This document shows positions 2,070-49,191 of a stretch of DNA of 64,000 bases, in pieces (position 1 is the stretch's first letter; every line of letters starts with the position of its first letter). The stretch comes from a virus (lineage: Duplodnaviria; Heunggongvirae; Uroviricota; Caudoviricetes). The stretch is taken from the IMG/VR virus record IMGVR_UViG_2706794662_000007. One strand, written 5' to 3'. Below the pieces are notes generated by a model. That model was not told the origin of the DNA. It ran no database searches and worked only from the letters and a program-made list of their open reading frames with translations. The position numbers and the translations under genes are program-made.

Positions 2070-2176
2070 CTGGTAGGTAGTTACTTACTTATCACAATGG
2101 ACGGATGATAGCGACTGGTGTCAGTTTTTGGAAGTGAAAACGGAAGGGAGTTGTTCTGGTGGTGTCTTTTAAAAGA

Positions 2177-2229
2177 CCTGCTTCCGTATATATTTAATAA
2201 GTTACTTATTATTTATATACAGAAACAGG
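2177..2229. repeat. ~53-bp near-perfect palindrome, copy A (CCTGCTTCCGTATATAT...ATATACAGAAACAGG)
   Basis: inverted arms flank AT-rich centre TTAATAAGTTACTTATTA; near-identical copies at 33069-33123 and 63687-63747. Confidence 0.75.
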
Positions 2230-2334
2230 CTCCTAATGGATACCAAGAACAACATAATTTGACTCCAACTCCAGATGCTATGTCATTGACAGATTTATCA
2301 AGGGAGATCATGTTAGAATTAGTGTTTTAGCCTC

Positions 2335-3468: not shown

Positions 3469-3828
3469 TCAACCTTTCTTCATTAACTCGCGTTTAATTT
3501 CATCGGTACGCATCGTGACATCGGCAGCAGTGATCGCCTCGTTAAGCTTCACGATGTCCTCGATTTCCTGCGGTGACTTCTCTGCCAGATGGAAAATAGC
3601 AGCACGAATCACATCAGAGCGGGTGAATTTCTCGAAGCGAGGGATGAACTTCATCATCTCCAGCAGTTCGAAGTATTCGTCCTCCAGTGACATTGTGCGG
3701 CTTTTAATTTTCTCTTTGCCACGAGTCGGGCGTCCCTGTGGTCTGACTGGTTGGCGCAAAGGAGTTGTGTTCTTAGCCGGTGCATCAGACTCTTTGCGCT
3801 TTGCTAGGTCACCCATTTTCATGGACAT
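3469..3828 (-). CDS. small partition partner candidate (ParG/ribbon-helix-helix-like DNA-binding protein)
   Basis: 119 aa, basic N-terminus, start overlaps parA stop (ATGA-type junction at 3828). Confidence 0.35.
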   Translation of the reverse strand: MSMKMGDLAKRKESDAPAKNTTPLRQPVRPQGRPTRGKEKIKSRTMSLEDEYFELLEMMKFIPRFEKFTRSDVIRAAIFHLAEKSPQEIEDIVKLNEAITAADVTMRTDEIKRELMKKG

Positions 3829-4496
3829 TATTCTTCTTCCTCCAGACTCAACAGATAATCTACAAATTCTTCAAACTCGGCTTCCGCCTTTTTGTCGCGC
3901 TCGCTACCGGTCATTTCAAAGATAGAACGACCAGACTCTTCCGCATCATCATAGACGTTGCGGTTATATAGATTGACTGGCGCAGACTCGATGCCAAACG
4001 TCTCAACAATCTCTTTAGCCGCCAGAATGCGAGACACTTGTGATGGCAAAGCCGGGCACTGGTTCATGACCGCGCGGACCTTCACTTTATCGTTTACATT
4101 GCGAACATTGTCGATAATAGGATCGATGTCACGTAAAGATTTCAAATCACGACGCTTAGGACGCAGCGGGATAATGATAACGTCAGCCATCAGCATCGCT
4201 TGTCGCTGAATTTCGGAGTCGAAGCCACCAGCATCTACCACTACAAACTCAGCTCTACCCTGAAGCGATTTTAGGTGCTTAATGATGTCATCCTGAACGT
4301 ATGCAAAAGGAATCAGCTCAAGGTCTTCGTTCTGTCGACGGTCTTCACACCAGCTCGTTGTCGTGCGCTGAATATCTATATCGGTAATATAAACCTTCTT
4401 CTTCTTTTTGACTTTCAGGCAAACGGCAATTTGCTGGGCAACGGTGGATTTGCCAGGCCCGCCCTTTGTGCCGCCAACCACAAAGATCTTGGTCAT
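3828..4496 (-). CDS. parA: ParA/ParF-type partition ATPase
   Basis: deviant Walker A GGTKGGPGKST at N-terminus; 222 aa. Confidence 0.8.
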   Translation of the reverse strand: MTKIFVVGGTKGGPGKSTVAQQIAVCLKVKKKKKVYITDIDIQRTTTSWCEDRRQNEDLELIPFAYVQDDIIKHLKSLQGRAEFVVVDAGGFDSEIQRQAMLMADVIIIPLRPKRRDLKSLRDIDPIIDNVRNVNDKVKVRAVMNQCPALPSQVSRILAAKEIVETFGIESAPVNLYNRNVYDDAEESGRSIFEMTGSERDKKAEAEFEEFVDYLLSLEEEE

Positions 4497-31062: not shown

Positions 31063-32319
31063 CTATCGAGAACCACCAAGAATAACACGATTTTTTACTG
31101 GATACCTACGATGTACTGGATAGCCCAATGCGTCTGCACTATGCTCAATGCCACCTGTCTTATCCATATCTCGTGTTCCAGGCTTGTAGATGACTTTTTC
31201 CAGTGAATCAATCAAATGCTTGCACTTCGGATCGATATACAGCCGGATATCTCCAGATGCGGACATCAGCATTCGGTTAACAGCATTAACACGATCCGCA
31301 ATTGGCGGGTGCTTTTTCGAATAATCGACACGTAAGAATCCCTTCTCTTTGAATATGTCTACGTCAGACTCCCCACGAGCATGTTGGCGATAAGCACCTG
31401 CCGGATCTGGAAATACCGTTACCTGTGATTTCCAGCGCCAGAAGCGTCTCTCAAGCTCATCACAAACTTCTGCCGTGTTAGAGGAAAAGAGCACCAATTC
31501 ATCAATTGCCCATAGCTCACCATTTGGCTGAGGTTGCAAAATTACTGAAGACATCGGGTCAATGTTGAAGTCCTGCCCTACCCATATAGGCAACCGAGGG
31601 TTGAACTGAAGCGGTTTTACATGCACGTTACGATCGAACGGGTAGTAAACGCGCCCGGACATGTTCTCAAAGCTCGCCAGGTACTCCTGAGCGAACGATT
31701 TCGGGTCCATATCGTTCTTAGCAGCTTCAATTTCCGCCGTAGGTACAAACGGAGAATCGGCAGTTACAAACTGCCAGCTCTTCCACTGTCCCTTTCTTTG
31801 CAGCTCTACGTTCTGGCCTATAGTCCACAGTTTGTGAAATTCCGAGAAGCCTTTTGGCGTACCAATGATCAGTGCACCGCCGCGTGTCGATGAAAGAGTA
31901 GGTCGTAACACCTTGTACCAGGTGTCAGCCTTCATATCCTGAAATTCATCAAGCACTACAAAATGCAACGCTACGCCGCGCAGAGTGTCAGGCTTATCAG
32001 CACCTTTGAGGGCGATCTCCGAACCGTTCTTCAACACGATTGTCATCGTGGTGTCGTTCTTTTTCCTAACCCACTTACGAGGCAGAACTTCCTGTAGATC
32101 GTCCCACAAAATCTGGCGAGCCATCTGGTAAGTAGGAGCGACATACCAGACTCTTTGCTTTTTTTCCTTTGCCGCCGCACGAATAATAGTGGAGATCGAC
32201 AACCGGGATTTTCCCCAGCGTCGACCAGCACAAACAACTTTAAATCGATGCGGAGACTGGAAGACTTTCATCTGTCCAGAATGCAGTTGCACAAGACTGA
32301 GCGAGGACGGGATTGCCAT
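31063..32319 (-). CDS. terminase large subunit
   Basis: Walker A CAGRRWGKS and Walker B VVLDEFQD; C-terminal nuclease-like acidic residues. Confidence 0.85.
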   Translation of the reverse strand: MAIPSSLSLVQLHSGQMKVFQSPHRFKVVCAGRRWGKSRLSISTIIRAAAKEKKQRVWYVAPTYQMARQILWDDLQEVLPRKWVRKKNDTTMTIVLKNGSEIALKGADKPDTLRGVALHFVVLDEFQDMKADTWYKVLRPTLSSTRGGALIIGTPKGFSEFHKLWTIGQNVELQRKGQWKSWQFVTADSPFVPTAEIEAAKNDMDPKSFAQEYLASFENMSGRVYYPFDRNVHVKPLQFNPRLPIWVGQDFNIDPMSSVILQPQPNGELWAIDELVLFSSNTAEVCDELERRFWRWKSQVTVFPDPAGAYRQHARGESDVDIFKEKGFLRVDYSKKHPPIADRVNAVNRMLMSASGDIRLYIDPKCKHLIDSLEKVIYKPGTRDMDKTGGIEHSADALGYPVHRRYPVKNRVILGGSR

Positions 32320-32951
32320 TATTCGTCCTCCCCTTCACTTCCATCATCTGTCGCATCAAATTCGCTTAGAGCTTCTTCTTCCAACGTCTCAAGCAATTCG
32401 TCATCGATGATTTCAGGCTCGTCGTCTTCCTGACGTAATTTCGCCACCTGGGAAGGCGTAAGCTCACCAAATACCAGGTTCGGAATTTCTTCCTCGTCAT
32501 TTTCCGCATGATCCATGCCCAATGCTTTGGACGAAACTTCAAAGCATTTTGCAAGAGTATTACTGGCTCTCTGTAAGCTCTTGAGAGAATCCTCAATCGC
32601 CCCTAAAGGCTTACCCTCACGTTTGGCCGTAGTGACTTCGACCATCACCATCTGCCCCAACGCATACGCCCAGCCGTCATAACGTGTACGACGTTCTTCT
32701 ATCTTTTCCGCACGGGCTTTAGCGCGAAGCTCTGCGTCAGATTTAAGAGACTCACGAACCATCTTCCCAACAGAGTCCGCGCCTTTCTCTAATCCTCGCT
32801 TTTTGAAATGTCTGGAGAGTGTTTCACGACGAATGCCGTACTCTTCCTCCAGCTTTGAGAGTGTATATTCGCCTGACGTCCATTTGGCTTCAGCTTCGGC
32901 CCACTCCGCTGGTGTCAGGCGAGTTTTTACCTCGTCTTTTTCGACCGTCAT
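32319..32951 (-). CDS. terminase small subunit candidate
   Basis: 210 aa, helix-turn-helix-like N-terminus, acidic tail, overlaps TerL start. Confidence 0.55.
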   Translation of the reverse strand: MTVEKDEVKTRLTPAEWAEAEAKWTSGEYTLSKLEEEYGIRRETLSRHFKKRGLEKGADSVGKMVRESLKSDAELRAKARAEKIEERRTRYDGWAYALGQMVMVEVTTAKREGKPLGAIEDSLKSLQRASNTLAKCFEVSSKALGMDHAENDEEEIPNLVFGELTPSQVAKLRQEDDEPEIIDDELLETLEEEALSEFDATDDGSEGEDE

Positions 32952-33068
32952 AGATCCCTCTAAAACACACAGAGCGCGTCCATGCGCTCTAAAACAACTT
33001 GTTTACTGCATATGCTAACCAACTTGTTTTCTGGGGTGTTTAATTAGGTCTGGGCATGTCTTACTAAG

Positions 33069-33123
33069 CCTGCTTCTGTATATATTTAATAAGTTACTTA
33101 TTATTTATATATACAGAAGCAGG
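33069..33123. repeat. ~55-bp palindrome, copy B
   Basis: CCTGCTTCTGTATATATTTAATAAGTTACTTATTATTTATATATACAGAAGCAGG. Confidence 0.75.
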
Positions 33124-33147
33124 TCTTTAAATAAGCTCCCAGACCGA

Positions 33148-33414
33148 TTACATCACCAGTAACTTCGCTTTGGCTCGACCTAAAGTGGTTAACCCAAGAG
33201 TCCGGCGGTGATAGCGATTGTCACTGCGTTGGCGCGTATGTCCTTTCTCCACCAGCCCCTTTTTTATCAGAGCGCGAATTGAGAACTGGATGCTTTGCTT
33301 GGTTGTCTTGTACGGCAAAACTTCAAGCAATTCGTCCAGATCAAGTAGATGACCTCGCTCATAACCGAGATTGAGCGTTTTGATGATGTCCTTTTGTTTG
33401 TCGGTTAACGTCAT
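33148..33414 (-). CDS. winged-helix DNA-binding protein candidate
   Basis: 88 aa; helix-turn-wing pattern; sits beside palindrome B. Confidence 0.4.
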   Translation of the reverse strand: MTLTDKQKDIIKTLNLGYERGHLLDLDELLEVLPYKTTKQSIQFSIRALIKKGLVEKGHTRQRSDNRYHRRTLGLTTLGRAKAKLLVM

Positions 33415-33423
33415 GGCAAATCC

Positions 33424-34323
33424 TTATGCCGGTAAAGCAATTTCTAACGGTTTATCCAAAGGTTGTTTGTCGAATGCCAGCAGTGGCAGCGTGTCAGGCA
33501 GTCGACGACCAAAGTCAGGGTTTCGGTACACACCATACAACGGAGACGTAAAGCTCAGGTTGTGAATGTCCTTGAGCAGCTTCACAATGCTGGCCTCGTC
33601 CACCAGACTGTCGGCAATGTCCTGAATCGTCGTGCCACGATTCCGCCCAGCTTTTGCCAGGGAACTGTTCTTGTGGTAGTCCGCCACCAGATCACGCAGT
33701 GCACGGCGACGACGAGACTCGCTCATTGCGAACAACTCTTTGACGATCGCCTCGTTATCACCAGGGTCGGAACGGAAATGGCGCTGGAATACACGCAGTG
33801 CACTTTCATAGCTCTTCGGTCGCTCAGGGCGGATGAACTTAAACCCTGCTTTCATGGCGAAGGGATTGTATTTGCTCATCGAGGACTGGATCTCAATGAT
33901 TGGCCGGTCATGCATCCTGCTAACCAGGTTAATCATTCGATAAGAGACGCCTACGCCACGATACTGAGTATCCACAACTGAGCGACTGATCACCGCAAAG
34001 TTGTTATTCACGTACCGACCCCAGTACTGGTTAGCTACGGTGGTATTAGTGGTTGGTTTCAACTTAGGAAACATGCGGTGGCGAGGTGCCAACAGTAGTT
34101 TCGGGTAAGCCATAACCACGACGCCCACCAGACGGTCATCAAGTTCGCAGCGATAGTAAGTTGGCGCGAAAGGTTTGCCGTCTGTTTTGTAGTGAAGCGA
34201 CTTAAGAGCGTGCCAGTCCTCTACAGTTCCCTTTGTGACAGTCATTCGCTCCAGAAAGTCCAGATGACGCGGAAACTCTTCAGGGCGGTAGCGTTTGATG
34301 ATGATATCTGCCATGTCGATCAC
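33424..34323 (-). CDS. GNAT-fold acyltransferase-like protein with ~130-aa C-terminal extension
   Basis: motif-A-like segment VISRSVVDTQYRGVGVSYRMINL. Confidence 0.45.
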   Translation of the reverse strand: MIDMADIIIKRYRPEEFPRHLDFLERMTVTKGTVEDWHALKSLHYKTDGKPFAPTYYRCELDDRLVGVVVMAYPKLLLAPRHRMFPKLKPTTNTTVANQYWGRYVNNNFAVISRSVVDTQYRGVGVSYRMINLVSRMHDRPIIEIQSSMSKYNPFAMKAGFKFIRPERPKSYESALRVFQRHFRSDPGDNEAIVKELFAMSESRRRRALRDLVADYHKNSSLAKAGRNRGTTIQDIADSLVDEASIVKLLKDIHNLSFTSPLYGVYRNPDFGRRLPDTLPLLAFDKQPLDKPLEIALPA

Positions 34324-34574
34324 CTGCGCTCGATATTGGCATTGATGAAATCCAGGCGAAGAGACTCCATCGCCCCTACCATGACATACGGGCGCCCGCC
34401 GTTATGCCAGCAATCAAGAACACTGCCGTCGTTGTTGATCATCAACAGCGCCAGGCTCTGGCTTTTTCCTTCTCTGGCGTGCTGAAGTGCTTCTTCCAGC
34501 AGGCGGATGACTTCCACGTTGTTGTTATCAGTCTCTTTCGATGGCTTCAGCTCTACGATCTTCAAATCAGGCAT
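34320..34574 (-). CDS. hypothetical protein, 84 aa
   Basis: ORF track; coupled between ATPase and GNAT-like genes. Confidence 0.4.
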   Translation of the reverse strand: MPDLKIVELKPSKETDNNNVEVIRLLEEALQHAREGKSQSLALLMINNDGSVLDCWHNGGRPYVMVGAMESLRLDFINANIERR

Positions 34575-35205
34575 ATTCCACCTTCACGCGTTCTTTGTAG
34601 TGCTTGGTGATCTGCATATCCGGGCGCAGCGCGTTCTTCAGGTCTTCGTGAGTCGTCGCCACCATTACCGTCGCACCAACCTTTCGAGCGGCACGCTGGA
34701 GGTTAGACGCCACAACCTGAGCGGTTACACGGTCTAGAACAGCGCCGAACTCGTCAGCAGCCCATACTTTAGCGCCTGACTCAATCAGTTTGGCAATCTT
34801 GAGACGATATTTCTGGCCGTCTGACATTTCAGAAGGCTTGCGAACAAACAGATATGCATCGTTCAGACCAGCCATAGATAACAACCCAAGCGCATCACTG
34901 GTCGTTTTGCCCAACTGATCGATGACGTTAACCTCATTATCGAAGGTAAAATCATCGATGGAGGCTACAGACAGCCCTTCATCCTTCATCTGTCGTTGCA
35001 ACTCGCGCAGCACAACGGATTTGCCGGAACCGGATTGGCCGGTGATGTACACCACATCGCCCTGCTTCACTTCCAGCTCCAGATTGTCGTAAAGCGTCCA
35101 CTCTTTTTCGTCCAGGCCAAGCCCGAACGACTCAGCGATTTCCAACGTGCGCGTGGTTTTATTTACGCGTGTCTGAAACGATACGTTGATGATGTATTTG
35201 CTCAT
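34567..35205 (-). CDS. stand-alone ABC-type ATPase (nucleotide-binding domain only)
   Basis: Walker A GQSGSGKS, signature-like MSDGQKYR, Walker B VWAADEFG, H-loop TTHE; no membrane partner nearby. Confidence 0.6.
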   Translation of the reverse strand: MSKYIINVSFQTRVNKTTRTLEIAESFGLGLDEKEWTLYDNLELEVKQGDVVYITGQSGSGKSVVLRELQRQMKDEGLSVASIDDFTFDNEVNVIDQLGKTTSDALGLLSMAGLNDAYLFVRKPSEMSDGQKYRLKIAKLIESGAKVWAADEFGAVLDRVTAQVVASNLQRAARKVGATVMVATTHEDLKNALRPDMQITKHYKERVKVEYA

Positions 35206-35870
35206 GCAGCCATCTCCCCGGAAGAGATTTTCTCCGCATATGCCACAAATGCGTCTACCCCGCTTTCTCCCGTCATTTCTTCCATGTGGGCAAGCAAATC
35301 ACCAACAACAATGGCAGAGCCAGCAGGAAGCGTTTTAAAGCCCAATACGTCGACAACACGTACTTCTTCCGCTGCAACTTCACGACTGATCTCGGTGTGT
35401 TCATCCTTCTGTCGTTTAGTTTCTTCGCCAAGATCGATAACTAGCGAGTCGGTGTCCATTTCTTCTGTCATACTGCCAACGAGAACATTCAACTCACGCT
35501 CTTCGAAGCCGAAAACCTCGATATCGTCCAGAACAAGCGACTCAAGCTCTTTCTGTAGCTTAATTGCATCGTAATCAATGCTGGCAAGTCGGTTATCTTC
35601 AAGGCGCTTCGCACGAACCTCGTCATCACTGAGATCATCGCGAACAATAACCGGTACACGCTCAAGTCCAGCAAAAATTGCAGCCTCACGACGGCCGTGG
35701 CCAGTAATAATTACGTCGTTCTTATCGACCGTAATTGGCTGGTCAAATCCGCGCTTTTTAATGGCTGCGGCCAGATCTCTGATCTGCTGTTCATCATGCT
35801 TTTTGGCATTCATCTCATAGGGAATAAGATCTGCCGGGTCGCGATATACGATTTCAAACTTTTTGGTCAT
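35202..35870 (-). CDS. ParB N-terminal (ParB/Srx fold) domain protein
   Basis: ParB box-like ITGHGRREAA; start taken at Met giving TAATG junction with upstream gene. Confidence 0.6.
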   Translation of the reverse strand: MTKKFEIVYRDPADLIPYEMNAKKHDEQQIRDLAAAIKKRGFDQPITVDKNDVIITGHGRREAAIFAGLERVPVIVRDDLSDDEVRAKRLEDNRLASIDYDAIKLQKELESLVLDDIEVFGFEERELNVLVGSMTEEMDTDSLVIDLGEETKRQKDEHTEISREVAAEEVRVVDVLGFKTLPAGSAIVVGDLLAHMEEMTGESGVDAFVAYAEKISSGEMAA

Positions 35871-36550
35871 TACATACGCTCCTTGTAGTAGTCGACCAGC
35901 CACACCAGAGCCTCACCAGCGTTCTCCATTTCATTACCGGTGTTAATAGCCTGCTCTTTGATGATGTTTTTTATGGTTTCTGCAACACGATCTGACGCAT
36001 CGAAAGTTACTTTGAAGCGCATGGTCTGATGTTCCGCCCCCACACGTTCGGTTTTCTCTCGTTTGTCGGTATCGACAGGCTCATCACTACCACGAGACAA
36101 CGCCTCCAGTGCTTCAAGGTCGATTGCCGCCTCTTTTGCTAAAACCATCGAGATTTCGTCGTCATACGGGGCGATTTCAGACAGTTGATAGTCAAGTTCT
36201 GACTGAATTTCTTCAATGAAGCGTTGCAATGCGATTTGGTCGTCTTCACCGTATCGCTCGTTGTCCACCAGTGACATCTGTTTAGCTACGACATCGCTAA
36301 TTTTGCCCACAGAAAGCACTGGAACCGTTGAAATTCCTTGCTCAATAGCGGCACGCCAGCGATGTTCGCCGCCGAGGATTTCAAAAAATCCATCTTCAAG
36401 TTCACGAGCCAAAATTGGCTTAAAAAAGCCCAATTTTTCGATAGAACCTTTCAGTTTTTCGAAATTCTGCGCACCAACCGAATTGGTGTTCCAGGTATTC
36501 GGGCGAAGGTTGGCAACATCAACCTGCAAAATCGTGATTTTTACGTCCAT
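35870..36550 (-). CDS. ParB N-terminal domain protein, paralogous neighbour
   Basis: ParB box II-like ILGGEHRWRAA; ATG at 36550 preferred over GTG at 36568. Confidence 0.6.
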   Translation of the reverse strand: MDVKITILQVDVANLRPNTWNTNSVGAQNFEKLKGSIEKLGFFKPILARELEDGFFEILGGEHRWRAAIEQGISTVPVLSVGKISDVVAKQMSLVDNERYGEDDQIALQRFIEEIQSELDYQLSEIAPYDDEISMVLAKEAAIDLEALEALSRGSDEPVDTDKREKTERVGAEHQTMRFKVTFDASDRVAETIKNIIKEQAINTGNEMENAGEALVWLVDYYKERM

Positions 36551-36632
36551 TTTATTGCTACAATCCACTAAGTAATCACTTACTTATTATAATAGCCAAA
36601 TAACATACAAAAGGCACTAAGGAAAGAGGTTT

Positions 36633-47075: not shown

Positions 47076-47095
47076 TGCGAAGAGAGGTTGTTTAA

Positions 47096-49034
47096 TTACT
47101 TAACCTGGTGGCCAGGTTTAGCACCAGCATCCGGGCTTAACAGGAAGATATCTTTCCCGCCAGGACCGGCAGCCATCACCATGCCTTCAGAGATACCGAA
47201 GCGCATTTTACGTGGTGCCAGGTTAGCCACCATAATGGTGTGACGACCAATCAGTGCCTGTGGATCTGGATAAGCGGAACGGATGCCTGAGAAGACATTA
47301 CGCTTTTCACCACCGAGATCCAGCGTCAGGCGAAGCAGTTTGTCAGAACCTTCGACAAACTCCGCGTTTTCAATCAGCGCCACACGCAGGTCAACTTTGG
47401 CGAAGTCGTCAAAGGTGATGGTTTCCTGAATCGGTTCGTCAGCCAGTGGGCCAGTTACCGGTGCAGCTGTGGCTTTCACTTCTTCTTTGGATGCTTCCAC
47501 CAGTGCTTCCACCTGTTTCATATCGATACGGTTATACAGTGCCTTGAACGGATTCACTTTATGGCCCAGAAGCGGTTGCTGGATACCATCCCAGGTCAGT
47601 TCTGTATTCAGGAATGCTTCTGCACGTTCAGTCAGTTTCGGCAGTACCGGTTTCAGGTACGTCATCAGCACGCGGAACAGGTTAATGCCCATAGAGCAAA
47701 TCGCCTGCAGATCTGCATCGCGACCTTCCTGCTTCGCCACCACCCACGGAGCCTGTTCATCGACATAGCGATTAGCCAGGTCAGCCAATGCCATGATTTC
47801 ACGGATAGCTTTACCAAATTCGCGGCTTTCCCATGCTTCGCCAATCACTTCAGCGGCATCAGTAAAGGTTTTGTACAGTTGCGGGTCAGCCAGTTCGCTT
47901 GTCAGCACGCCGTCAAAACGCTTGTTGATAAAGCCTGCATTACGGGAGGCCAGGTTAACCACTTTGTTCACGATATCGGCATTCACGCGCTGAACGAAAT
48001 CTTCCAGGTTGAGATCGATATCATCAATGCGCGAAGAGAGTTTCGCAGTGTAGTAGTAACGCAGGCTGTCAGCGTCAAAATGATTCAGCCAGGTGCTGGC
48101 TTTAATAAAGGTGCCGCGAGACTTGGACATCTTCGCGCCGTTCACCGTCACATAGCCGTGAACAAACAGGTTGGTCGGCTTGCGGAAGTTGCTGCCTTCC
48201 AGCATGGCAGGCCAGAACAGACTGTGGAAGTAAACGATATCTTTGCCGATGAAGTGGTACAGCTCGGCGGTGGAGTCTTTCTTCCAGTATTCGTCGAAGC
48301 TTACGCTGTCGCCGCGCTTGTCGCACAGATTCTTGAAAGAACCCATGTAGCCAATCGGCGCGTCCAGCCAGACGTAGAAATATTTGCCCGGCGCGTTCGN
48401 NNNNNNNNNNNNNNNNNNNNNNNNNNNNNNNNNNNNNNNNNNNNNNNNNNNNNNNNNNNNNNNNNNNNNNNNNNNNNNNNNNNNNNNNNNNNNNNNNNNN
48501 NNNNNNNNNNNNNNNNNNNNNNNNNNNNNNNNNNNNNNNNNNNNNNNNNNNNNNNNNNNNNNNNNNNNNNNNNNNNNNNNNNNNNNNNNNNNNNNNNNNN
48601 NNNNNNNNNNNNNNNNNNNNNNNNNNNNNNNNNNNNNNNNNNNNNNNNNNNNNNNNNNNNNNNNNNNNNNNNNNNNNNNNNNNNNNNNNNNNNNNNNNNN
48701 NNNNNNNNNNNNNNNNNNNNNNNNNNNNCTCTTCGCTGTGCGTCGAGTGATAGTTGTCATAGCTGATGTTAAAGCCTGCGAAATCAGTCTGATGTTCCTG
48801 ACTCATTTCGCCAATCATCTGTTCCGGTGTGATACCAAGCTGCTGTGCTTTCAGCATGATTGGCGTACCGTGGGCATCGTCGGCACAGATGAAATTAACC
48901 TCGTGGCCGCGCATTCGCTGGTAACGAACCCAGACATCAGCCTGGATGTGCTCCAGCATATGGCCGAGGTGGATTGAGCCGTTAGCGTACGGCAGCGCGC
49001 ACGTCACCAGAATTTTCTTCGCGACTTGGGTCAT
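47096..49034 (-). CDS. metG: methionine--tRNA ligase (interrupted by N-run; frame differs on the two sides of the mask)
   Basis: N-terminus [29 protein letters not shown] and C-terminus ...[24 protein letters not shown] recognised as enterobacterial MetRS. Confidence 0.9.
48390..48728. other. run of 339 N inside metG
   Basis: literal n characters. Confidence 1.
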
Positions 49035-49191
49035 AGTAGGCATTACTTCTTTGTAGTGAAAAGGGGCTTGATAGTAACAAAATGGCCTTATGTCTGCCAT
49101 GTGATAACAGCATTTCTCATAAATGATTAAATGTCGTAGCTGGAGTACACTACAAGGCGACAATTGCGCAAATTAAAATAAAGGAGACGGG

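What the first reader, a model, noticed from the sequence alone, without database searches (positions are those of the whole stretch)
33148..36568. Accessory cluster beside terS: wHTH - GNAT-like - small ORF - stand-alone ABC ATPase - two tandem ParB-N-domain proteins
Six co-oriented, tightly coupled genes sit between palindrome B and a divergent SF2-helicase operon. The ATPase has all ABC nucleotide-binding motifs but no transporter partner. Both ParB-like proteins keep the GxxRxxA arginine-rich box of CTP-binding/nuclease ParB domains, and are separate from the ParA partition locus 30 kb away. GNAT-fold enzymes and ParB-like proteins occur in DNA-modification and anti-restriction systems, and ParB-like nucleases occur in packaging initiation. 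This combination next to the terminase is not a module I can name, so it is a candidate undescribed DNA-modification, anti-defence or packaging-associated system.
Basis: partly seen in the sequence, partly recalled or inferred. Interest (0 to 1): 0.7.

Follow-up and report, generated by a model that had tools for sequence, protein, structure and literature searches.

The report
Terminase-linked ParB / ABC-ATPase / acyltransferase phage module
The six genes are real, but they are a conserved core module of a whole phage lineage rather than an accessory cluster: an ABC ATPase and a GNAT acyltransferase that form one split enzyme, plus ParB-like partners, a type already predicted in silico (never tested) to put an acyl group on viral DNA.

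Summary
Six co-oriented, translationally coupled minus-strand genes (33148-36568) lie between a palindrome upstream of terS and a divergent SF2 helicase. The window is an SSU5-family phage-plasmid.

- The cluster is not accessory. The same gene order occurs in virulent ~110-kb siphoviruses of Pseudomonas, Rhizobium and Stenotrophomonas, and in an Ectothiorhodospira genome contig. The ABC ATPase is as conserved as TerL (55-59% vs 55-62% identity).
- The ATPase is not an orphan transporter subunit. With the 299-aa GNAT-fold protein it forms a split version of the "ABC ATPase fused to acetyltransferase" family, which is fused in archaeal proviruses, actinophages and Pseudoalteromonas phage SL25.
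- Three archaeal proteins are ParB-ABC-GNAT fusions. The fused gene abuts TerL in 40 of 68 assessable, mostly archaeal loci.
- In phage Jace the pair sits beside aspartate decarboxylase and a CoA-transferase.
- The ParB-like proteins are not partition proteins.

The Aravind group had already predicted ABC-GNAT systems to acylate a DNA base, so this is a new member of a known but experimentally untested kind. My best mechanism is a lytic-cycle, ATP-driven, acyl-CoA-dependent acylation of phage DNA before packaging (confidence about 0.45). Interest is moderate.

The parts
35870..36568 (-). ParB-like protein 1 (GEHR type; likely true start 36550, 226 aa). ParB/Srx NTP-binding fold, acidic linker and a small C-terminal domain.
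   Evidence: PF02195 E 3e-13, phrog_723 E 2e-79. Spo0J/Noc/ParB PDB hits E 3e-9. TIGR00180 43 bits, below the 58.45 cutoff. Orthologues in nickie, RHEph10, BUCTxx99 and L086. Same type as the ParB domain fused to ABC-GNAT in archaeal proteins.
35202..35870 (-). ParB-like protein 2 (GHGR type, 222 aa). Resembles the N-terminal ParB domain of phage ParB-methyltransferase fusions but has no methyltransferase domain.
   Evidence: PF02195 E 1.5e-8, phrog_930 E 1e-112, phrog_498 'DNA methyltransferase' N-terminal region E 5e-32, PADLOC MTase_II E 3e-17. Net charge about -22. The same type sits upstream of ABC-GNAT in phage SL25.
34567..35205 (-). ABC-type ATPase (212 aa, nucleotide-binding domain only). 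It is the ATPase half of a split ABC-GNAT enzyme.
   Evidence: PF00005 E 5e-13 with all motifs intact. phmmer E ~1e-64 to the ABC domain of fused ABC-GNAT proteins, sharing the N-terminal FGLG.DE motif. 55-59% identical in distant phages, equal to TerL.
34320..34574 (-). 84-aa ORF of unknown function (phrog_796). It occupies a variable insertion slot between the two enzyme halves and is probably not part of the core.
   Evidence: Absent in phage Cyrano, where ABC and GNAT genes abut. The slot holds unrelated small ORFs in nickie, RHEph10 (DUF2829) and L086 (Phage_gp49_66, RyR). No Pfam or NCBIfam hit.
33424..34323 (-). GNAT-fold acyltransferase half (299 aa; PGAP start 34314). It carries conserved insertions (residues 73-108 and ~172-258) and an intact acyl-CoA site.
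33148..33414 (-). 88-aa winged-helix DNA-binding protein (phrog_900), last gene of the operon.
   Evidence: AF2 pLDDT 81. Foldseek hits to MarR, MepR, AF1382 and APE_0880a winged helices, TM 0.68-0.77. Net charge +9. A small ORF is in the same position in relatives; 37% identity in BUCTxx99.
33068..33126 (.). Palindrome B (~56 nt, AT-rich centre, core TAATAAGTTACTTATTA) between the operon and terS. Candidate operator or packaging-site element. Specific to the SSU5 group, not to the module.
   Evidence: The SSU5 homologue has compensatory arm changes. Absent from nickie, RHEph10, BUCTxx99 and L086.
32970..32991 (-). Terminator-like hairpin (8-bp GC-rich stem followed by a T-rich tail) just upstream of the terS start.
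   Evidence: consensus scan only.
36569..36632 (.). Divergent intergenic region between ParB-like 1 and the helicase; presumed promoter region. It holds a third, imperfect copy of the palindrome core (36573-36589).
31063..32951 (-). terS (32319-32951) and terL (31063-32319). These are the conserved downstream neighbours with which ABC-GNAT genes are linked in several virus lineages.
   Evidence: Terminase_6N E 3e-9, phrog_867 and phrog_2. TerL adjacency in archaeal proviruses, SL25 and L088.

Best explanation
The operon encodes a lytic-cycle, multi-subunit acyltransferase machine of the ParB / ABC-ATPase / GNAT type.

Shown:
- The ABC ATPase and the 299-aa GNAT-fold protein are two halves of one enzyme. 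They are a single polypeptide in archaeal proviruses, actinophages and phage SL25, sometimes with a ParB domain fused in front.
- The ATPase motifs and the acyl-CoA-binding motifs are intact.
- The module is a conserved core feature of the SSU5/nickie/RHEph10 phage lineage.
- In several unrelated virus lineages it is linked to terS/terL.

Inferred:
- ATP-driven dimerisation of the ABC domains engages DNA, as in other soluble nucleic-acid-binding ABC ATPases.
- The two acidic ParB-fold proteins have no evident DNA-binding domain. They act as NTP-dependent activators or loaders, as shown for ParB-dependent phage thymine dioxygenases and for DpdB with DpdA.
- The GNAT subunit transfers an acyl group from an acyl-CoA to an exocyclic amine of a base in replicated phage DNA, shortly before or during packaging.
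- The winged-helix protein supplies targeting or autoregulation.
- The modification would protect packaged DNA from host nucleases or mark it.

I put membership in the ABC-GNAT family at about 0.85. DNA as the acyl acceptor is about 0.45; that is the figure given as the confidence.
For: 1. Fusions. The A1 profile finds ~450-500-aa ABC+GNAT proteins. The window ABC matches their ABC domain at E ~1e-64 and the window GNAT matches all 80 fetched loci. Three single ORFs of ~640 aa are ParB-ABC-GNAT (ParB HMM E 1e-41 to 1e-29).
2. GNAT fold with invariant RxxGxG/A-like and motif-B residues.
3. Core status and conservation equal to TerL.
4. Dedicated donor synthesis. In phage Jace the order is ParB, ABC-GNAT, aspartate decarboxylase (E 2e-33), CoA-transferase III (E 2e-8). 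This is a plausible route to beta-alanyl-CoA.
5. ParB-like 2 is the ParB type normally fused to phage DNA methyltransferases. The ParB domain is therefore attached either to a methyltransferase or to ABC-GNAT.
6. Linkage to terminase genes, the usual place for late DNA-modifying genes:
   - TerL abuts the fused gene in 40 of 68 assessable, mostly archaeal loci.
   - In SL25, ParB/ABC-GNAT/terS/TerL have overlapping stop and start codons.
   - The Firmicute prophage L088 shows the same linkage.
7. Not expressed above background in the Cyrano lysogen, whereas the ParA-like gene is (PMC9928086).
8. Precedents. ParB as an obligatory activator of a phage DNA dioxygenase (PMC13229309). ParB-fold fusions to methyltransferases and acetyltransferases (PMC12704722). 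GNAT-fold Mom as a DNA adenine acyltransferase, and the published prediction for ABC-GNAT (PMC7824862).
Against: - No experiment on any member was found in the library searches.
- The acyl acceptor is inferred only from context.
- SSU5-family genomes carry no obvious acyl-CoA-generating gene in the operon.
- Most archaeal ABC-GNAT loci lack any ParB, so ParB is not obligatory for the enzyme.
- Both ParB-like proteins are strongly acidic, so direct DNA binding by them is doubtful.
- No report of unusual bases or restriction resistance was found for SSU5-like phages. The one targeted search returned nothing relevant.
- The tight terminase linkage fits a packaging role equally well.
Confidence: 0.45

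Rival explanations
1. Packaging accessory. The ParB/ABC/GNAT proteins assist the terminase directly, for example by recognising or preparing the packaging site or by clearing or remodelling DNA for the motor. Acyl transfer would be secondary or directed at a packaging protein.
For: ABC-GNAT genes sit next to terS/TerL in at least four unrelated virus groups, often with overlapping stop and start codons. In the window the operon ends at a palindrome immediately upstream of terS, and the SSU5 and Cyrano records are linearised inside that palindrome. The ATPase is as conserved as TerL.
Against: These phages already have a canonical terS and TerL. Nothing in known packaging mechanisms needs an acyl-CoA enzyme. 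Jace couples the module to aspartate decarboxylase and a CoA-transferase, which points to chemistry rather than mechanics. In pT24 and EastWest no terminase gene is annotated within the 4-5 kb shown on either side of the module. The palindrome is not conserved with the module.
Confidence: 0.17
2. Protein or small-molecule acylation on DNA. The complex acetylates DNA-bound host proteins (nucleoid proteins, RNA polymerase), phage structural or packaging proteins, or polyamines. This would be host takeover or DNA condensation control rather than DNA modification.
For: The closest structural neighbours are protein N-terminal/lysine and polyamine or amine acetyltransferases. Phage GNATs that modify host RNA polymerase are known (Rac of phiKMV, cited in PMC7824862).
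Against: This does not explain the recurrent ParB and ABC-ATPase coupling, the methyltransferase-type ParB partner, or the terminase linkage. The family-specific conserved insertions suggest a dedicated, unusual substrate.
Confidence: 0.15
3. RNA/tRNA acylation analogous to TmcA/NAT10 (ATPase + GNAT making N4-acetylcytidine).
For: There is a mechanistic analogy of an NTPase coupled to a GNAT. The window also encodes a methionyl-tRNA synthetase (47087-49120), and nickie has tRNA-Met/Asn genes near the module.
Against: No sequence relationship to TmcA was detected. ParB fusion and terminase linkage point to DNA. The tRNA and MetRS genes are not conserved neighbours in the relatives examined.
Confidence: 0.06
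4. Plasmid partition. The two ParB-like proteins segregate the phage-plasmid, as assumed in plasmid annotations and in a phage-plasmid survey.
For: They have a ParB N-terminal domain. Pfeifer et al. list two ParB copies in related Acinetobacter phage-plasmids under partition (PMC7969092).
Against: - Both genes are conserved in virulent phages without a plasmid stage (no temperate behaviour observed for Nickievirus psageB1, PMC8537276).
- Both score below the canonical ParB model cutoff.
- Neither has an LG[KR]GL ParA-binding motif or an evident HTH.
- The ParA-type ATPase is 30 kb away with its own small partner gene.
- They are not among the genes expressed in the Cyrano lysogen, whereas the ParA-like gene is.
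Confidence: 0.03
5. Anti-defence or defence cassette. Examples would be acidic ParB-like DNA mimics, or an ABC-ATPase-based abortive system carried by the phage-plasmid.
For: Both ParB-like proteins are very acidic. There are weak PADLOC P-loop hits to mad3/mad8/PtuA.
Against: The PADLOC hits cover only the Walker A region. No known system architecture is matched. Strict synteny and TerL-level conservation across phages of distant hosts are atypical of fast-evolving counter-defence genes.
Confidence: 0.08

Closest known systems
ABC-ATPase-coupled GNAT system predicted to acylate a DNA base (Iyer, Zhang, Burroughs & Aravind 2013, as summarised in PMC7824862; COG label 'ABC-type ATPase fused to a predicted acetyltransferase domain', MK0520-like)
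   Same: Same two catalytic domains with family-specific motifs: FGLG.DE before Walker A, and DW..HY plus RxxGxG/A in the GNAT. Homology to fused members is strong. The system occurs in phages. Cyrano's annotators already used the MK0520 label.
   Different: - Here the enzyme is split into two genes with a variable ORF between them.
- It is accompanied by two ParB-fold paralogues and a winged-helix protein.
- It is a core, terminase-adjacent module of a ~110-kb siphovirus / phage-plasmid lineage.
- The prediction itself has never been tested.
Phage Mu Mom (GNAT-fold DNA adenine N6 acyl/carbamoylmethyl transferase)
   Different: There is no detectable sequence relationship and no family hit. 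Mom works without an ATPase or ParB partner. The structural score is no better than to unrelated GNATs.
ParB-dependent phage thymine dioxygenases (5mYOX + ParB; PMC13229309) and DpdA/DpdB
   Same: A ParB-fold protein with an N-terminal NTP-binding domain, a linker and a small C-terminal domain, without an obvious DNA-binding domain. It is encoded next to, and in those systems required by, a DNA-modifying enzyme.
   Different: The catalytic partner here is an ABC-GNAT acyltransferase, not a dioxygenase or transglycosylase. Two ParB paralogues are present. Dependence has not been tested.
Phage ParB-DNA methyltransferase fusions (phrog_498 type)
   Same: ParB-like 2 matches their N-terminal ParB region at E 5e-32.
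   Different: No methyltransferase domain is present. The associated catalytic activity is an acyltransferase encoded separately.
TmcA / NAT10 RNA cytidine acetyltransferases
   Same: An NTPase is coupled to a GNAT to acetylate a nucleobase in a polynucleotide. This is a functional analogy only.
   Different: The ATPase class differs (helicase-type vs ABC). No homology was detected. The substrate there is RNA, and there is no ParB.

Membership tests
ABC-ATPase + GNAT predicted DNA-acylation system (COG 'ABC-type ATPase fused to acetyltransferase') | ABC nucleotide-binding domain of the family-specific clade, with intact catalytic motifs | tested here: met
   phmmer E ~1e-64 to the ABC domain of fused proteins. 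Shared N-terminal FGLG.DE motif. Walker A/B, signature and H-loop are present.
ABC-ATPase + GNAT predicted DNA-acylation system (COG 'ABC-type ATPase fused to acetyltransferase') | GNAT-fold domain homologous to the C-terminal half of the fused proteins, with an acyl-CoA-binding motif | tested here: met
ABC-ATPase + GNAT predicted DNA-acylation system (COG 'ABC-type ATPase fused to acetyltransferase') | The two domains are fused or encoded by neighbouring co-oriented genes | tested here: met
   They are separated only by an 84-aa ORF here and are directly adjacent in Cyrano. They are fused in SL25, Jace and archaeal loci.
ABC-ATPase + GNAT predicted DNA-acylation system (COG 'ABC-type ATPase fused to acetyltransferase') | Acyl group actually transferred to a DNA base | not testable with these tools
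   This needs nucleoside mass spectrometry or in vitro assays. No experimental report was found.
ParABS partition system | Adjacent cognate ParA and a ParA-interaction motif at the ParB N-terminus | tested here: not met
   The ParA-type gene is at 3828-4496 with its own small partner. Neither protein has an LG[KR]GL-type motif (sequences).
ParABS partition system | Canonical ParB architecture (TIGR00180-positive, HTH DNA-binding domain, parS sites) | tested here: not met
   TIGR00180 43.3 and 43.1 bits against a 58.45 cutoff. Only ParB_N is detected. The alignment shows an acidic linker plus a small C-terminal domain. The only repeated palindrome is not conserved with the genes.
ParABS partition system | Expression in, and restriction to, the plasmid/lysogenic state | tested here: not met
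   Present in virulent phages. Not among the lysogen-expressed Cyrano genes (PMC9928086).
ABC transporter | Membrane permease partner, or a coupling helix-binding NBD within a transporter operon | tested here: not met
   The operon has no membrane protein. The partner is a GNAT domain, shown by fusions.
Mom family DNA acyltransferases | Sequence membership in the Mom family | tested here: not met
Known anti-phage defence systems (PADLOC) | Match of several components to one system's models | tested here: not met
   Only P-loop-level hits for the ATPase, and methyltransferase N-terminal (ParB) hits.

The most novel reading that the evidence does not exclude
Tailed viruses of both bacteria and archaea carry a terminase-linked, ATP- and ParB-assisted GNAT enzyme. 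It installs a so-far-undescribed acyl or aminoacyl adduct (acetyl in SSU5-like phages, possibly beta-alanyl in phage Jace) on a DNA base just before packaging. Hundreds of clinical Enterobacteriaceae phage-plasmids (757 PLSDB plasmids carry the cluster) would then package chemically modified DNA that nobody has looked for.
Probability: 0.35. Interest if true: 0.8.

Novelty: new member of a known kind. Interest (0 to 1): 0.5.

Why it matters
If the prediction is right, this would be a second class of enzymatic DNA acylation after Mom. It would come with an unusual requirement for an ABC ATPase and ParB-fold cofactors.

The module sits in one of the commonest phage-plasmid families of E. coli, Klebsiella, Salmonella, Shigella and Yersinia (757 PLSDB plasmids), in plant-pathogen biocontrol phages (Nickievirus), and in archaeal proviruses.

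It also corrects routine mis-annotations: 'ABC transporter', 'ParB partition protein', 'DNA methyltransferase'. And it gives a tractable E. coli/Salmonella system (SSU5, Cyrano) for testing a 2013 in-silico prediction.

If the module instead proves to be a packaging factor, it would be a new conserved component of the terminase machinery.

Tried and rejected
- Direct family searches of the 299-aa, 84-aa and 88-aa proteins (Pfam, NCBIfam, PDB sequences) gave nothing significant. PHROGs gave only family numbers, plus a misleading 'ABC transporter' label for the GNAT protein.
- PADLOC gave no system-level match.
- The IMG/VR scan with the GNAT alignment returned only close relatives.
- The AFDB Foldseek library was unavailable.
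- I tested whether the palindrome core (TAATAAGTTACTTATTA) is a cis-site belonging to the module. It occurs three times in the window and is conserved in close relatives. It is absent from the equivalent regions of nickie, RHEph10, BUCTxx99 and the Ectothiorhodospira element. I therefore rejected it as a module-defining site.
- Literature searches for SSU5 + ParB-like + terminase, COG2401, the fused-protein name, Nickievirus/RHEph10 biology and phage aspartate decarboxylase found no functional study. A search for restriction resistance of SSU5 DNA was uninformative.
- Iyer et al. 2013 itself is not in the library. Its content is cited only through the 2021 review.
- The profile-profile link between the Jace gp86 GNAT half and the window family is weak (hhalign probability 35%). 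Jace is tied in mainly through its ABC half (E 3e-19) and shared motifs.
- Partition, transporter and defence readings were considered and rejected (see the membership tests).

Full report
**What the window is.** The 3.4-kb region is 100% identical to ~108-kb Shigella sonnei plasmids and 98-99% identical to E. coli phage-plasmids such as Cyrano. It is 86% identical to Salmonella phage SSU5. The window is therefore an SSU5-family phage-plasmid. In PLSDB, 757 plasmids match the region, 715 of them over at least 80% of its length.

**Observation.** All six ORFs exist on the minus strand as described. PGAP and SSU5 annotations agree, apart from slightly shorter starts for three genes: ParB-like 1 at 36550, ParB-like 2 at 35870 and the GNAT-like gene at 34314. 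Gene junctions overlap or are separated by 9 nt or less.

Each fold assignment was checked:
- The ATPase hits ABC_tran (E 5e-13). It has Walker A, the SDGQ signature, Walker B and the H-loop.
- Both ParB-like proteins pass the ParB_N gathering score and match Spo0J/ParB/Noc structures.
- Within that protein, the R122-G-V-G125-V-S segment (the RxxGxG/A acyl-CoA site) and the NPFA..AGF motif B are invariant or nearly so.
- The 88-aa protein models as a MarR/Lrs14-like winged helix.
- terS, terL and portal follow downstream. An SF2 helicase is divergent upstream. A ParA-type ATPase with its own small partner lies at 3828-4496.

**Not accessory: a core, syntenic module.** The same order recurs in four distant relatives. 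The order is helicase (divergent), ParB-like 1, ParB-like 2, ABC, variable small ORF(s), GNAT-like, a small ORF (a wHTH homologue was detected only in BUCTxx99), a gap, then terS, terL and portal. The relatives are Pseudomonas phage nickie, Rhizobium phage RHEph10, Stenotrophomonas phage BUCTxx99 and a phage-like region of a 295-kb Ectothiorhodospira genome contig.

Identity to these relatives, measured against the window:

| Protein | Identity |
|---|---|
| ABC ATPase | 55-59% |
| TerL | 55-62% |
| Portal | 46-55% |
| GNAT-like | 40-45% |
| ParB-like 2 | 38-43% |
| ParB-like 1 | 29-39% |
| terS | 27-33% |

The two ParB-like proteins form two distinct orthologous groups, a GEHR type and a GHGR type. 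Among cultured phages, the split GNAT protein is found only in this ~105-122-kb siphovirus lineage (31 records). The 84-aa ORF is dispensable. It is missing in Cyrano and is replaced by unrelated small ORFs elsewhere.

**The ATPase and the GNAT protein are one split enzyme.** A profile of the GNAT protein, searched against 1.84 billion representative proteins, found 926 with E ≤ 0.001. Many are 450-500 aa with the GNAT region in the C-terminal half. Pfam shows an N-terminal ABC_tran domain in them. One carries an intein inside the ABC domain. Others carry N-terminal family-B DNA polymerase or C-terminal TFIIB segments.

A genome scan with 30 such fusions returned 80 loci, mostly Bathyarchaeia and Nitrososphaeria MAGs, plus Thermincola and a Bacillaceae prophage. 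The window ABC protein matches their ABC domain at E ~1e-64. The window GNAT protein matches all 80 loci.

Three loci encode single ~640-aa ParB-ABC-GNAT polypeptides (ParB HMM E 1e-41 to 1e-29). By the Rosetta-stone argument, ParB, ABC and GNAT act together. The PHROG and GenBank labels 'ABC transporter', 'ParB-like partition protein' and 'DNA methyltransferase' are therefore misleading.

**Linkage to the terminase.**
- In 40 of the 68 (mostly archaeal) loci with enough upstream sequence, a Terminase_6N-type TerL gene abuts the fused gene on the same strand. Fifty of 80 loci have a TerL-like gene nearby. Tail-tube and HK97 gp10-like genes mark these as tailed proviruses.
- In the Bacillaceae prophage the order is ABC-GNAT, Amidoligase_2, a weakly terminase-like 571-aa ORF (Terminase-T7 RNaseH-like domain, E 3e-4, below the Pfam cutoff), then an SPP1-type portal.
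- In the 34-kb Pseudoalteromonas phage SL25, an unannotated stretch encodes a GHGR-type ParB, a fused ABC-GNAT and a small ORF that I read as terS by its position. TerL and portal follow. Successive stop and start codons overlap through TerL.
- Actinophages Jace and EastWest carry a ParB-like gene plus ABC-GNAT near the right genome end.

**Context that points to chemistry.** In Jace the order is ParB (gp85), ABC-GNAT (gp86; Acetyltransf_1 E 1e-8), aspartate decarboxylase (gp87; E 2e-33) and a family III CoA-transferase (gp88; E 2e-8). That is a plausible route to beta-alanyl-CoA as a dedicated donor. In Thermincola, a weakly Dam-like gene precedes ABC-GNAT.

ParB-like 2 is the ParB type normally fused to phage DNA methyltransferases (phrog_498 E 5e-32; PADLOC MTase_II E 3e-17). 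The same adaptor domain is thus attached either to a methyltransferase or to ABC-GNAT.

**Not partition.**
- Both ParB-like proteins fall below the canonical ParB model cutoff.
- They lack a ParA-binding motif and an evident HTH.
- They are strongly acidic, with net charges of about -18 and -22. The GNAT protein (+14) and the winged-helix protein (+9) are basic.
- They occur in virulent phages.
- In the Cyrano lysogen the ParA-like gene is expressed more than 5-fold above background, but the module genes (CYRAN_119-123) are not listed (PMC9928086).

[quoted passage not shown] It cites Iyer et al. 2013 and gives Tenacibaculum phage pT24 as an example (PMC7824862). The pT24 ABC gene is a detectable homologue of the window gene.

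Recent experiments give precedents for the ParB partners:
- A ParB-fold protein lacking a DNA-binding domain is an obligatory activator of a phage DNA thymine dioxygenase (PMC13229309).
- ParB folds bind CTP, ATP or GTP and are fused to methyltransferases and acetyltransferases (PMC12704722).
- DpdB is a ParB-like ATPase partner of the DNA transglycosylase DpdA (PMC12839542).

I found no experimental work on the ABC-GNAT module itself. Iyer et al. 2013 could not be read.

**Mechanism proposed.**

Shown:
- It is a lytic-cycle operon.
- ABC plus GNAT form one enzyme with intact ATP and acyl-CoA sites.
- ParB-fold partners are present.
- It is linked to terS/terL.

Inferred:
- ATP-dependent ABC dimerisation engages DNA.
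- The ParB-like proteins act as NTP-dependent activators or loaders.
- The GNAT transfers an acyl group from an acyl-CoA to an exocyclic amine of a base on replicated DNA before packaging.
- The winged-helix protein targets or autoregulates.

I rate family membership at about 0.85 and DNA as the acceptor at about 0.45. The main rivals are a direct packaging role (0.17) and protein or small-molecule acylation (0.15). tRNA acylation, anti-defence and partition are less likely.

**Verdict.** The finding is real and the components were read correctly. However, the cluster is a conserved core module of a previously predicted but untested kind, not an undescribed accessory system. It is a new member of a known kind and of moderate interest (0.5). 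SSU5 and Cyrano offer an easy genetic system for finally testing whether phages acylate their DNA in this way.

Noticed in passing
window 2176-2232, 33068-33126 and 36573-36589: Two near-identical ~56-nt AT-centred palindromes lie 31 kb apart. Their shared core TAATAAGTTACTTATTA is exact at 2195-2211 and 33087-33103. A third copy of the core, with 2 mismatches, lies in the ParB1/helicase divergent region. That is 3 matches against 0.27 expected. All three sit in promoter-like intergenic regions, so this may be an operator of a dimeric regulator or a packaging-site element.
   Followed up: partly
L001 1-62 with L170 1-30 (SSU5 record ends); L002 3-17 (Cyrano): The linear GenBank records of SSU5 and Cyrano are cut inside the homologue of palindrome B. 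The SSU5 arms differ from the window by a compensatory pair of changes (cttcCgt / acGgaag versus cttcTgt / acAgaag), which implies selection for the inverted repeat. The core is conserved in E. coli-type relatives but not in the ~80-90% identity groups.
   Followed up: partly
window 32970-32991 (-): A terminator-like hairpin (8-bp stem followed by a T-rich tail) lies about 20 nt upstream of the terS start. It may separate, or attenuate read-through between, the module operon and the packaging operon.
   Followed up: no
window 34320-34574; L003 5591-5926; L004 5339-5841; L086 8961-9999: The junction between the ABC and GNAT genes, which is the linker position in fused homologues, is a variable insertion slot. 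It holds an 84-aa ORF here and nothing in Cyrano. Relatives carry a DUF2829 ORF, a Phage_gp49_66 ORF or a RyR-domain ORF there.
   Followed up: partly
window 47087-49120 and 49278 onward: The phage-plasmid encodes a full-length methionyl-tRNA synthetase (metG) and an ApbC-like iron-sulfur carrier ATPase, according to PGAP annotation of the identical Shigella plasmid.
   Followed up: no
window 3469-4496: The real partition candidate is a 222-aa ParA-type ATPase with a ~119-aa downstream partner. In Cyrano, a gene annotated 'septum site-determining protein' (CYRAN_99), which I take to be the homologous ParA-type gene (correspondence not checked), is expressed in the lysogen.
   Followed up: partly
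L168 5947-8712 (Rhodococcus/Gordonia phage Jace gp85-88): ParB-like, fused ABC-GNAT, aspartate decarboxylase (PanD) and a family III CoA-transferase form one co-oriented block. This suggests phage-encoded synthesis of beta-alanyl-CoA for the GNAT.
   Followed up: partly
P0165, P0173, P0192, P0155 (representative proteins): Unusual architectures occur among ABC-GNAT homologues: an intein with a LAGLIDADG domain inside the ABC domain, N-terminal family-B DNA polymerase segments, and a C-terminal TFIIB repeat. Some of these may be gene-call run-ons.
   Followed up: no
L087-L166, e.g. contigs of MAG CAYRSV01 (L105, L108, L122, L150, L152, L156): Single Bathyarchaeia MAGs carry several copies of the ABC-GNAT gene (TerL-adjacent in L122 and L152, where I checked) on different contigs. 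This implies multiple related proviruses or a proliferating element.
   Followed up: no
L088 8510-9400: In a Fredinandcohnia (Bacillaceae) prophage, an Amidoligase_2 (PF12224, E 2e-47) gene lies between the ABC-GNAT gene and a weakly terminase-like ORF that precedes the portal gene.
   Followed up: no
L173 3359-5402 (Pseudoalteromonas phage SL25): A 2-kb stretch with no annotated genes in the GenBank record encodes ParB-like, ABC-GNAT and terS-like ORFs directly upstream of TerL.
   Followed up: yes
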